Assembly (NCBI GenBank): GCA_022823665.1
Contig: JAJEHN010000027.1
Coordinates: forward strand, 383-64,382
Direction: 5' to 3'
Source of the DNA: Thermoanaerobaculia bacterium
Lineage (GTDB): Bacteria > Acidobacteriota > Thermoanaerobaculia > Multivoradales > Multivoraceae
Length of the DNA stretch: 64,000 nt
Shown: piece after piece, positions 39,625 through 40,107 of the stretch
Position numbering within the stretch: position 1 is the first letter of the stretch
How the letters are laid out: the number at the start of each line of letters is the position of its first letter
The notes under the pieces: model-generated
Told to the model about the DNA's origin: nothing
What the model saw: only the letters and a program-made list of their open reading frames with translations
The model's database searches: none
Program-made: the position numbers and the translations under genes

Positions 39625-39702
39625 CGCGCTTTCCCCGCTAGGGCGGGGTCGCGACATCCGCTGCGCCGCACACAGGTCTATCTCCGATGGGATCGGAGGG
39701 CG
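39625..39702 (-). ncRNA. Mini-CRISPR / CRISPR-like regulatory RNA (CreA/CreR-like): degenerate repeat, 20-nt spacer, degenerate repeat
   Basis: psiR1 (39702-39674) CGCC-CTCCGAT-CCC-ATCGGAG-ATAGACCT; spacer (39673-39654) GTGTGCGGCGCAGCGGATGT; psiR2 (39653-39625) CGCGA-CCCCGC-CCTA-GCGGGG-AAAGCGCG. Both pseudo-repeats are 29 nt. The spacer matches 40078-40059 at 18/20. Confidence 0.85.
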
Positions 39703-39760
39703 AGTGCTTGCTGGCTGGTACGATGCCGAGGATCGTCGATGAGCAACCACAGTGGTGATG

Positions 39761-39845
39761 TGGGCAGCGACCCGGCCGGATTTGAAACCGGCATCCCGCC
39801 TTGGTTCCTTGGCGCGTCTTGACCTTAGACGAAAGGGTCGCTGCC
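39761..39845 (-). ncRNA. tRNA-like structured element (non-canonical cloverleaf)
   Basis: 11-bp closing stem GGCAGCGACCC/GGGTCGCTGCC followed by CA; D-like arm CGTCT-AAGGTCA-AGACG; arm CGCC-AAGGAACCAA-GGCG; T-like arm GCCGG-TTTCAAAT-CCGGC. Confidence 0.6.
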
Positions 39846-40058
39846 GTTCCGCCCGCCGGGGTAGACCCTCGGCGGGCGTTCCCGTTCTTGGGTTGGCGCA
39901 CCGCGCCGAATGAGTGAGTGCCCCGGCGCGGGCGGAGTGCTTCATCGGCAGGTGGCGCAAGGGATTTCTGCGTCTCAAGGAGCCTCTGTGTCTTGTCCAT
40001 CGTGAACTCTCTCGCCGAGTTCTGCTTACCAGCTCGATAGTGTCCGCTAACTTGTAGT

Positions 40059-40107
40059 ACATCCGCTGCACCTCACACACTATGGAGAATCAAACCGCTG
40101 CTGTCAA
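40059..40107 (-). promoter_or_regulatory. sigma70-type promoter for the Cascade operon, overlapping the mini-CRISPR target
   Basis: TTGACA (40107-40102), 17-bp spacer, CATAGT (40084-40079), immediately followed by the protospacer-like 40078-40059. Confidence 0.75.

What the first reader, a model, noticed from the sequence alone, without database searches (positions are those of the whole stretch)
39625..40107. Hidden mini-CRISPR in the cas3-cas8e gap targets the Cascade operon's own promoter
Seen in sequence (minus strand): 12 bp before the cas8e ATG lie two degenerate 29-nt repeats. psiR1 keeps the 8-nt 5' handle (ATAGACCT vs ATAGACCC) behind a different hairpin (CTCCGAT/ATCGGAG). psiR2 keeps the CCCCGC/GCGGGG hairpin in exact register. 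The 20-nt spacer GTGTGCGGCGCAGCGGATGT matches GTGTGAGGTGCAGCGGATGT at 40078-40059, with mismatches only at positions 6 and 9. The target begins directly after the -10 box of TTGACA-17bp-CATAGT, so the PAM position (AGT) lies inside the -10 element. Established: Cascade does not pair every 6th spacer base, and short spacers allow binding without Cas3 cleavage; CreA/CreR-type RNAs repress promoters this way. Inference: Cas6e matures this RNA from the cas mRNA leader, and Cascade then represses its own promoter in a negative feedback loop.
Basis: partly seen in the sequence, partly recalled or inferred. Interest (0 to 1): 0.92.

Follow-up and report, generated by a model that had tools for sequence, protein, structure and literature searches.

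The report
Self-targeting mini-CRISPR regulating Cascade genes
A degenerate two-repeat mini-CRISPR just upstream of cas8e encodes a guide that matches the promoter at the head of its own operon, a known kind of CRISPR self-regulation, here carrying an unexpected conserved tRNA-derived RNA.

Summary
On the minus strand, psiR1 (39702..39674), a 20-nt spacer (39673..39654) and psiR2 (39653..39625) lie 11 nt before the cas8e ATG. The spacer matches 40078..40059 with mismatches at positions 6 and 9, and 0 of 1000 shuffles reach this. The target abuts the only sigma-70-like promoter found in 39400-40300, TTGACA-17-CATAGT.

Eleven related type I-E loci, ten from Acidobacteriota MAGs and one from a MAG labelled Gammaproteobacteria, have the same layout with co-varying spacers and targets. 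Mismatches fall on positions 6/12/18 in 28 of 36 cells, against 12 of 180 at other positions. That is the footprint of Cascade pairing.

This is a CreR/CreA-type regulatory mini-array, a kind already described and tested in type I-E (Liu et al. 2023; Shmakov et al. 2023), so it is not new as a kind.

Between target and mini-array lies a conserved, covarying cloverleaf derived from tRNA-Cys, preceded by a GC hairpin. I found no description of this in print. It may be a processing signal or a CreT-like cargo. No RNA data or experiments were available, so processing and repression remain inferred.

The parts
40125..42716 (-). cas3. Its stop codon lies 18 nt upstream of the -35 box.
   Evidence: Pfam Cas3_HD 8.6e-28 and Cas3-like_C_2 4e-32.
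40079..40107 (-). Sigma-70-like promoter TTGACA-17-CATAGT. An alternative -10 reading is TAGTGT with a 19-nt spacing.
   Evidence: It is the only hit in 39400-40300, 10 of 12 matches, with 0.1 expected. A like promoter ends 0-6 nt before the target in 6 of 12 loci and 30 nt before it in a seventh.
40059..40081 (-). PAM-position AGT (40081..40079) plus the 20-nt protospacer GTGTGAGGTGCAGCGGATGT (40078..40059).
   Evidence: It covaries with psiS in the related loci.
39878..40058 (-). Variable leader. It has an SD-like GAGAGAG and an ATG at 40000 that opens a 120-codon frame not conserved in relatives.
   Evidence: No Pfam or NCBIfam hit. GC3 is 0.68 against 0.79 for cas8e, and the frame ends differ between relatives.
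39851..39877 (-). GC-rich hairpin GCCCGCCGAGGG-TCTA-CCCCGGCGGGC.
   Evidence: -27.7 kcal/mol, z -4.18. The upper stem changes in a compensating way across the loci (sequences).
39763..39845 (-). tRNA-Cys-derived cloverleaf: 11-bp closing stem, D-arm, a 4-bp arm with a 10-nt loop, and a T-arm.
   Evidence: Fold -43.6 kcal/mol, z -4.26. Covariation: 94.7% of cells paired, 6 pairs with double changes, 0 of 500 shuffles reach that. It is a single copy in the genome, and the next best profile hit is the genuine tRNA-Cys gene.
39720..39736 (-). Small hairpin ACGAT..ATCGT, which reads AGGAT..ATCCT in L019 and L033.
   Evidence: Read directly from the sequences. No statistical test was run.
39674..39702 (-). 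psiR1: a 7-bp hairpin followed by the 5' handle ATAGACCT.
   Evidence: The hairpin and handle are conserved in all 12 loci.
39654..39673 (-). psiS, a 20-nt spacer-like guide.
39625..39653 (-). psiR2: the canonical CCCCGC/GCGGGG stem, in register, with a degenerate 3' part.
   Evidence: -15.8 kcal/mol.
38021..39613 (-). cas8e. Its ATG lies 11 nt after psiR2.
   Evidence: TIGR02547 casA_cse1, 2.9e-23, covering 1-500 of 504 profile positions.
34853..35635 (-). cas6e, the presumed processing enzyme. The start coordinate is approximate.
   Evidence: PF08798, 6.4e-26, on residues 238-489 of the over-long ORF 34853..36346.
31957..33541 (-). Canonical type I-E CRISPR array: 26 exact repeats plus 1 degenerate one.

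Best explanation
This is a CreR/CreA-type regulatory mini-CRISPR embedded in the leader of the Cascade operon of a type I-E system.

**Inferred mechanism**
1. The strong promoter just after cas3 transcribes a roughly 460-nt leader: a variable part, a GC hairpin, a tRNA-Cys-derived cloverleaf, then psiR1-psiS-psiR2. The cas8e-to-cas6e genes follow.
2. Cas6e cuts at the base of the psiR1 and psiR2 hairpins. This releases a 49-nt crRNA-like RNA made of an 8-nt handle AUAGACCU, a 20-nt guide and a 21-nt 3' hairpin.
3. A Cascade loaded with this RNA binds the protospacer, which starts at the last base pairs of the -10 box. Its PAM position lies inside the -10.
4. This blocks RNA polymerase.
5. The guide is short or only partly complementary (20-22 nt paired, flipped positions unpaired), and the PAM is AGT rather than the array-implied xxC. 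Binding is therefore expected not to license Cas3.

The result is negative feedback on Cascade, on the guide itself, and on the tRNA-derived RNA.

**Shown:** the sequence anatomy, the statistical significance, and the evolutionary co-variation with 6-nt periodicity.

**Inferred:** transcription from this promoter, Cas6e processing, repression, and absence of cleavage.
For: - **Anatomy** in register with the canonical repeat.
- **Chance:** the 21-nt match is reached by 0 of 1000 shuffles.
- **Promoter:** it is the only promoter-like site in the 900 nt scanned.
- **Shared layout:** 12 loci, including a MAG labelled Gammaproteobacteria, have psiR1-psiS-psiR2 60-185 nt upstream of cas8e, with a same-strand match 239-517 nt upstream of the ATG.
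- **Mismatch positions over 12 loci:** position 6 in 10 of 12, position 12 in 8 of 12, position 18 in 10 of 12 (28 of 36 cells). Other positions 1-17 give 12 of 180. For 8 representatives my count from that table is 19 of 24 against 11 of 120.
- **Parallel change:** between the GTGTG and GTACG spacer families, both spacer and target changed at positions 3, 4, 9, 13 and 20.
- **PAM position:** -3 is A in 12 of 12 loci and -1 is C or T in 12 of 12.
- **Spacer length:** lengths are 20 or 32 nt, a difference of two 6-nt Cas7 steps (the Cas7 step size is recalled).
- **Gene set:** cas3, cas8e, cas7, cas5, cas6e, cas1, cas2 and the array are present.
- **Experimental precedent:** S. enterica I-E CreR repressed PcasA about 8.6-fold, and the psiR1/psiR2 rule is the same (bioRxiv 10.1101/2023.03.10.532045, passages read).
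- **Prevalence:** mini-arrays are reported in about 19% of bacterial I-E loci, with targets at cas8 promoters and 6th-position mismatches (10.1101/2023.03.03.530964, passages read).
Against: - There is no expression, processing or reporter data, and no RNA run was listed.
- The canonical PAM of this system could not be established. Whether AGT is permissive is therefore unknown.
- In 4 of 12 loci (L021, G001, L030, L032) my scan found no consensus-like promoter at the target, and in L026 only weak hits 24 and 56 nt from it.
- An internal promoter between the cloverleaf and psiR1 cannot be excluded. If one exists, cas8e need not depend on the targeted promoter.
- Relatives are not independent, so the shuffle statistics overstate significance.
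- The module is dispensable. 6 of 19 Cas8e rows lack it, including the closest relative, which is 89% identical.
Confidence: 0.7

Rival explanations
1. CreTA-type guard. The main product of the targeted promoter is a harmful or alarm RNA, either the tRNA-Cys-derived cloverleaf or the leader plus hairpin. The mini-CRISPR acts as its antitoxin. If Cascade is lost or inhibited, for example by an anti-CRISPR, the promoter is de-repressed and growth stops. Cascade autoregulation would be a by-product. This can coexist with the best explanation.
For: - The layout is that of the H. hubeiense creTA operon: targeted promoter, then cargo with a stem-loop, then creA, then the cas operon (PMC8501985, passages read).
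- The cargo is conserved across the 11 acidobacterial loci and has covarying stems.
- It is single-copy and specific to the CRISPR locus.
- In L025, L027, L030 and L032 it is a near-complete tRNA with a tRNA-Cys body and U73 but an Ala-reading loop.
- The module is lost en bloc in L028: target, cargo, psiR1 and psiS went together.
- The module is gained or lost as a unit at least 3 times on the Cas8e tree.
Against: - Toxicity was not tested.
- No mini-ORF with tandem rare codons is conserved.
- In the window's own genus the anticodon arm has become a 4-bp stem with a 10-nt loop, and ARAGORN finds no tRNA. A decoding-based toxic mechanism cannot be general.
- L026 has the mini-array without the cloverleaf.
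- En-bloc loss is also what a simple deletion would give.
Confidence: 0.2
2. Decaying relic. A self-targeting spacer, once acquired from the promoter, sits in a broken array fragment and has no present function.
For: - The match includes the PAM-derived last handle base, as a true acquisition would.
- psiR1 and psiR2 are degenerate.
Against: - The arrangement is kept in 12 loci spanning Cas8e identities down to 63%.
- Paired positions are maintained, with 12 of 180 mismatched, while positions 6/12/18 have drifted to 28 of 36 mismatched.
- The hairpins and the handle are conserved.
Confidence: 0.03
3. The two 21-mers are twin operator sites for a DNA-binding regulator, and the resemblance to a repeat is incidental.
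For: Direct repeats 405 bp apart could loop DNA.
Against: - A protein operator would not tolerate mismatches specifically at every 6th base.
- One copy is always flanked by a Cas6e-type hairpin plus the 5' handle and by a canonical-stem hairpin.
Confidence: 0.02

Closest known systems
CreR of the Salmonella enterica type I-E locus (Liu et al., bioRxiv 10.1101/2023.03.10.532045; abstract and passages read, figures not held)
   Same: - A degenerate mini-CRISPR in the cas3-casA region of a type I-E system.
- psiR1 keeps the 8-nt 5' handle and psiR2 keeps the 3' handle part.
- psiS is partly complementary to a PAM-flanked site upstream of casA.
- Function is Cascade autorepression without a recognised toxin.
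   Different: - There: 15 consecutive matching nucleotides, an AAG PAM, and a target about 140 bp upstream of casA.
- Here: 18 of 20 matching nucleotides with mismatches at positions 6 and 9, an AGT at the PAM position, and a target 465 nt upstream of the ATG.
- Here the mini-array sits 11 nt before the ATG, and a conserved tRNA-derived RNA lies in between.
- The order of creR and target in Salmonella could not be seen, because figures are not held.
CreTA operon of Halobacterium hubeiense, type I-B (Cheng et al. 2021, PMC8501985; passages read)
   Same: [quoted passage not shown]
- creA has two divergent psiR sequences.
- Pairing covers positions 1-5 and 7-11.
- A stem-loop follows the cargo.
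   Different: - That system is archaeal and type I-B, and its cargo is a six-codon mini-ORF with rare AUA codons that sequesters a tRNA.
- Here no such mini-ORF is conserved, and the conserved cargo is itself tRNA-shaped.
- Toxicity is untested here.
Regulatory mini-arrays of type I-E and I-F1 (Shmakov et al. 2023, bioRxiv 10.1101/2023.03.03.530964 = PMC10120712; abstract and passages read)
   Same: - Two repeat-like units in the cas3-cas8 gap.
- A partial match to the cas8 promoter region with a PAM.
- Mismatches at 6th positions.
- No target cleavage, shown there for I-F1.
   Different: - In their E. coli example the mini-array is transcribed opposite to cas3 and the target lies downstream of it.
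- Here the mini-array is co-directional with the cas genes and downstream of its target.
- Their cargo genes are protein toxin-antitoxin pairs and regulators. In their text 'tRNA' occurs only once, in a reference title.
tracr-L autorepression of the Cas9 operon (Workman et al. 2021; known only through citation in the passages and from recall)
   Same: A non-canonical guide with short complementarity turns the effector into a repressor of its own promoter.
   Different: It is type II, uses a long tracrRNA isoform, and involves no Cas6 processing.

Membership tests
CreR / regulatory mini-array (crRNA-like RNA) | [quoted passage not shown] | tested here: met
   psiR1 39702..39674, psiS 39673..39654 and psiR2 39653..39625.
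CreR / regulatory mini-array (crRNA-like RNA) | psiR1 conserves the 8-nt 5' handle, and psiR2 conserves the hairpin and 3' handle part. | tested here: met
   The handle matches 7 of 8 (ATAGACCT against ATAGACCC). The psiR2 stem is identical to the canonical stem and in register. The same holds in the 11 related loci.
CreR / regulatory mini-array (crRNA-like RNA) | The spacer is partly complementary to a site in or next to the promoter of the effector cas genes. | tested here: met
   18 of 20 positions match, directly after the -10 of the only predicted promoter. Spacer and target covary in relatives.
CreR / regulatory mini-array (crRNA-like RNA) | The target is flanked by a functional PAM of the system. 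| tested here: inconclusive
   The targets carry A-[AGT]-[CT] in 12 of 12 loci. The last base of the repeat suggests an xxC PAM. No protospacer was found to define the real PAM.
CreR / regulatory mini-array (crRNA-like RNA) | Cas6-dependent maturation, loading into Cascade, and repression of the promoter. | not testable with these tools
CreTA (CRISPR-repressed toxin-antitoxin) | A toxic gene or RNA is under the promoter that CreA targets. | tested here: inconclusive
   A conserved structured cargo exists. No CreT-like mini-ORF is conserved, and toxicity cannot be tested here.
Canonical CRISPR array | Near-identical repeats, a leader, and spacers of 32-33 nt that fully match foreign DNA. | tested here: not met
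   By my count from the and sequences, psiR1 matches the repeat at about 17 of 29 positions and psiR2 at about 17 of 29. There is a single 20-nt spacer, and it matches its own locus.
tRNA (tRNA-Cys), for the element at 39845..39763 | A cloverleaf with a D-arm (GG) and a T-arm (TTCRANY loop). | tested here: met
   RNAalifold gives a cloverleaf. 94.7% of cells are paired. It aligns to genuine tRNA-Cys genes.
tRNA (tRNA-Cys), for the element at 39845..39763 | A 5-bp anticodon stem with a 7-nt loop carrying GCA at positions 34-36, a free 7-bp acceptor end, and CCA. | tested here: not met
   In the window ARAGORN finds no tRNA. The arm is 4 bp with a 10-nt loop, and the acceptor is extended to 11 bp. 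In the four distant loci the loop reads NGC, typed as Ala. No CCA is encoded.

The most novel reading that the evidence does not exclude
The cassette is a CRISPR-guarded tRNA-derived RNA, a new class of CreT-like cargo.

- A tRNA-Cys descendant keeps U73, the D-arm and the T-arm but has a re-registered Ala-reading loop, or in this genus a rebuilt arm.
- Cascade and the mini-CRISPR guide keep it silent.
- It is released when Cascade is lost or blocked by an anti-CRISPR.
- It could then act as a non-chargeable or mischarged tRNA that mistranslates or triggers the stringent response, or as a decoy for a tRNA-binding enzyme.

A milder variant is also open. The cloverleaf may be natural tRNA punctuation, in which RNase P and RNase Z cut the guide precursor and the cas mRNA free of the leader. 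That would be the natural counterpart of engineered tRNA-gRNA arrays.
Probability: 0.2. Interest if true: 0.85.

Novelty: new variant of a known kind. Interest (0 to 1): 0.55.

Why it matters
The mini-CRISPR itself adds a clean example from uncultured Acidobacteriota to the known CreR/CreA class.

Its value is evolutionary. Across 12 loci the guide and its promoter target have co-evolved while every sixth position drifted freely. This is an in-nature readout of Cascade's 5+1 pairing rule and of how much complementarity (20-22 nt) is kept for regulation. It also shows the spacer shortened by exactly 12 nt in some lineages.

The new element is the conserved tRNA-Cys-derived RNA placed under the guide-controlled promoter. 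If it is a toxin or alarm, it would be a new mechanism for CRISPR addiction or anti-anti-CRISPR defence. If it is a processing signal, it would be a natural tRNA-guide-RNA arrangement. Either can be tested with ordinary reporter, toxicity and RNA-end-mapping assays in a laboratory host.

Tried and rejected
- **RNA evidence.** The look-up of sequencing runs listed 8 runs and no RNA holder. Read laying was therefore not used, and expression, transcription start and processing remain untested.
- **PAM from protospacers.**
  - The 24 own spacers gave only short chance matches in the own genome.
  - The whole array searched against 50,697 phage records gave nothing better than E 0.1.
  - Two spacers searched exactly in IMG/VR gave 0 hits each.
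- **Widening the sample.**
  - A phylum-wide pattern scan found 3 of 401 genomes, all in the own genus.
  - A class-wide BLAST around G451 added only the locus already held, plus genuine tRNA-Cys genes.
  - A metagenome pattern scan gave 38 hits, 0 of them real mini-arrays.
  - An IMG/VR scan for viral mimics gave 9 hits and 0 real mini-arrays: mostly terminator-like GC hairpins and other chance hits, plus one viral type I-E array in L091.
- **RNA family searches.** Rfam (E up to 1) and ARAGORN on the window's gap gave no relevant hit.
- **Gap ORFs as genes.** 39638..40000 and 39595..40080 were rejected: no family hits, low GC3, and frames and ends not conserved.
- **Second genomic near-match of psiS.** The site at C14:31170 lies inside a high-GC3 coding frame with GTA at the PAM position, and about 0.25 such matches are expected by my estimate. 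It was rejected as chance.
- **Internal promoter.** Between cloverleaf and psiR1, nothing passed my threshold except a weak hit in L032.
- **Cas11.** The slot between cas8e and cas7 has no Pfam or NCBIfam hit.
- **Literature.** Searches, and in-paper searches for 'tRNA', found no description of a tRNA-like element linked to a mini-array. Figures and supplements were not visible (for example the Shmakov mini-array lists and Figure S7 of Liu et al.) and may already list these loci.
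Full report
**Setting.** On the window's minus strand there is a complete type I-E locus.
- cas3 is at 42716..40125, with HD and helicase domains.
- A 511-nt gap follows, then cas8e at 39613..38021 (TIGR02547).
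- Downstream are an unrecognised small gene in the cas11 position, cas7, cas5, cas6e, cas1 and cas2.
- The array has 26 exact repeats and 1 degenerate one.
- The repeat reads GGTTCCCCCGCACCTGCGGGGATAGACC plus one base. That base is C in 23 of the 25 units listed.
- The genome is 68.8% GC. Related records are titled as Acidobacteriota MAGs: Candidatus Multivorans / Thermoanaerobaculia, Vicinamibacterales and Terriglobia.

**The observation.**
- psiR1 (39702..39674) has a 7-bp hairpin in the register of the canonical stem, followed by ATAGACCT.
- The 20-nt psiS occupies 39673..39654.
- psiR2 (39653..39625) has the canonical CCCCGC/GCGGGG stem in register.
- Eleven nucleotides separate psiR2 from the cas8e ATG.
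- psiS matches 40078..40059 with mismatches at positions 6 and 9. The identity includes the last handle base, giving 21 nt.
- In 1000 dinucleotide shuffles of the gap, none gave a 21-mer pair with 2 or fewer mismatches.
- The tool's promoter scan finds one site in 39400-40300, TTGACA-17-CATAGT at 40107..40079, where 0.1 is expected. It finds no terminator.
- The protospacer therefore begins at the base after the -10, and the PAM position (AGT) lies inside it.

**Comparative test.**
- Six other genomes of the 42-genome genus held here carry a homologous gap. A Cas8e-based scan of one genome per species returned 19 loci.
- In all, 12 loci including this one have psiR1-psiS-psiR2 directly upstream of cas8e.
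- In each locus the spacer has a same-strand partial match 239-517 nt upstream of the ATG.
- The spacers differ between lineages (GTGTGC.., GTACGC.., GTTCGG.., GTATGC.., TTATGC.., CCCTAT..), and the targets differ with them.
- For 8 representative loci the cognate pairs match at 109 of 120 effective positions. Non-cognate pairs average 8 of 15, and 0 of 14,833 derangements reach the cognate sum. Relatedness inflates such statistics, but the parallel changes are direct to see. Between the two Multivorans spacer families they fall at positions 3, 4, 9, 13 and 20.
- Mismatches fall at position 6 in 10 of 12 loci, position 12 in 8 of 12, and position 18 in 10 of 12. All other positions 1-17 together give 12 of 180 cells.
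- That is the pattern expected if pairing happens inside Cascade, where every sixth guide base is flipped out. This is established knowledge, also cited in the passages.
- In the 32-nt spacers, complementarity stops after about position 22.
- The base at -3 of the target is A in all 12 loci and -1 is C or T in all 12. This is compatible with, but does not prove, an AAC-like PAM implied by the repeat's last base.

**Promoter.**
- With my own looser scan, a TTGAC(A/G)-type promoter ends 0-6 nt before the target in 6 of the 12 loci (own, L018, L019, L033, L025, L027) and 30 nt before it in L020.
- Nothing passed at the target in L021, G001, L030 or L032, and L026 gave only weak hits 24 and 56 nt from it.
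- No comparably good promoter lies between the target and cas8e, except a weak hit in L032.
- The GC hairpin has no U-tail on the sense strand.
- Co-transcription of leader, mini-array and cas8e from the targeted promoter is therefore the simplest reading. It remains an inference.

**What it is.** The element fits the published CreR/CreA class of regulatory mini-arrays.
- Liu et al. showed that a Salmonella type I-E creR represses PcasA about 8.6-fold through Cascade. They state the same psiR1 = 5' handle and psiR2 = 3' handle rule (passages).
- Shmakov et al. report mini-arrays in about 19% of bacterial I-E loci. They describe targets at cas8 promoters, 6th-position mismatches, and no cleavage for an I-F1 guide (passages).
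- The H. hubeiense creTA operon has the same order: targeted promoter, cargo with stem-loop, creA, cas operon (passages).

Between target and mini-array all 11 acidobacterial loci keep a GC hairpin followed by a cloverleaf. In L020 the hairpin has a different sequence.
- RNAalifold returns acceptor, D, anticodon-type and T arms.
- 94.7% of cells pair, against 31-51% when the partners are slid. Six pairs show changes on both sides, and 0 of 500 shuffles reach that.
- By my count from the table there are 11 G-U cells against 2 A-C cells, which favours the cas-sense strand.
- In L025, L027, L030 and L032, ARAGORN calls a 71-74-nt 'tRNA-Ala' with anticodon UGC or AGC.
- The body, however, is tRNA-Cys:
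  - the best pairwise partner among the 58 own tRNAs is tRNA-Cys for three of these four elements;
  - BLAST with this part hits genuine tRNA-Cys genes in other genomes, 5 of 5 typed;
  - a profile of the element hits only the CRISPR copy in the own genome (5.9e-19), with the genuine tRNA-Cys next (E 0.071);
  - the alignment shows the same D- and T-arms and U73 but no encoded CCA, and a loop in which GCA sits one position 3' of its normal place.
- In the window's genus the anticodon arm is a 4-bp stem with a 10-nt loop. The acceptor is extended to 10-12 bp by pairing of leader and trailer, and ARAGORN finds nothing.

**Gain and loss.**
- On a Cas8e tree of 19 rows the module's presence needs at least 3 changes.
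- The closest relative (89% Cas8e identity) has a 21-nt cas3-cas8e gap and no module.
- L028, sister of L027, has an en-bloc deletion of -10/target, leader, hairpin, cloverleaf, psiR1 and most of psiS. A -35 and a broken psiR2 remain.
- The module is thus a dispensable cassette that is kept or lost as a unit.

**Mechanism and odds.** I put 0.7 on a Cas6e-matured 49-nt guide that directs Cascade to the -10/start region of the promoter heading the Cascade operon, giving negative feedback without cleavage. A CreTA-like reading, in which the tRNA-derived RNA is a harmful or alarm cargo, gets 0.2 and is compatible with the first. A functionless relic and a protein-operator reading get 0.03 and 0.02.

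**Limits.**
- No RNA data were available.
- The PAM is not defined.
- Only 12 loci were found, and several are close kin.
- Figures and supplements of the key papers could not be seen.

Noticed in passing
window 39763-39845 (-), with the hairpin at 39851-39877 (-): A conserved cloverleaf derived from tRNA-Cys, preceded by a GC hairpin, lies between the targeted promoter and the mini-CRISPR. It is a single copy in the genome. In distant relatives ARAGORN types it as tRNA-Ala(UGC/AGC), although its body and U73 are tRNA-Cys-like.
   Followed up: yes
L033:1193-1341 (same region as L006): Inside the tRNA-like element, the 28-nt piece holding the 5' acceptor strand and the D-arm is present in three tandem copies.
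   Followed up: no
L028:1330-1510 compared with L027:1000-1510: A single deletion removes the -10/target, leader, hairpin, tRNA-like element, psiR1 and most of psiS. The -35 box and a broken psiR2 remain in front of cas8e.
   Followed up: partly
L026:1150-1503 (MAG labelled Gammaproteobacteria): There is a mini-array with an 11-nt seed match (positions 1-5 and 7-11) and an AAC PAM about 160 nt upstream. There is no tRNA-like element. Instead an SD plus ATG opens a frame of about 88 codons with a hydrophobic start, running into the mini-array.
   Followed up: no
window ~32870-32930: One unit of the canonical array has a degenerate repeat whose handle reads GACGACCC instead of ATAGACCC.
   Followed up: no
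L030:1340-1500: A third repeat-like hairpin (TCTCCTCGCGCGAGCGAGGACAGATAC) follows psiR2. The mini-array lies 185 nt from the cas8e ATG rather than 60-84 nt as in the other loci.
   Followed up: no
G000 contig C14, position ~31170 (+): psiS has a second near-match, with mismatches at positions 12, 18 and 20 and GTA at the PAM position. It lies inside a high-GC3 coding frame and is judged to be chance.
   Followed up: partly
window 37477-38020 (-): The gene in the cas11/cse2 position has no Pfam or NCBIfam match, even at E up to 1.
   Followed up: partly
L025:1150-1195 and L027:1180-1220: On the opposite strand the GC hairpin is followed by a T-run (GGCCGTTTTTTT in L025). It could therefore also terminate antisense transcription. 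The window's own copy has no such run.
   Followed up: no
L091 (IMG/VR contig): This viral contig carries a type I-E-like CRISPR array whose repeat contains CCCCGCCCACGCGGGGATGGCCC.
   Followed up: no
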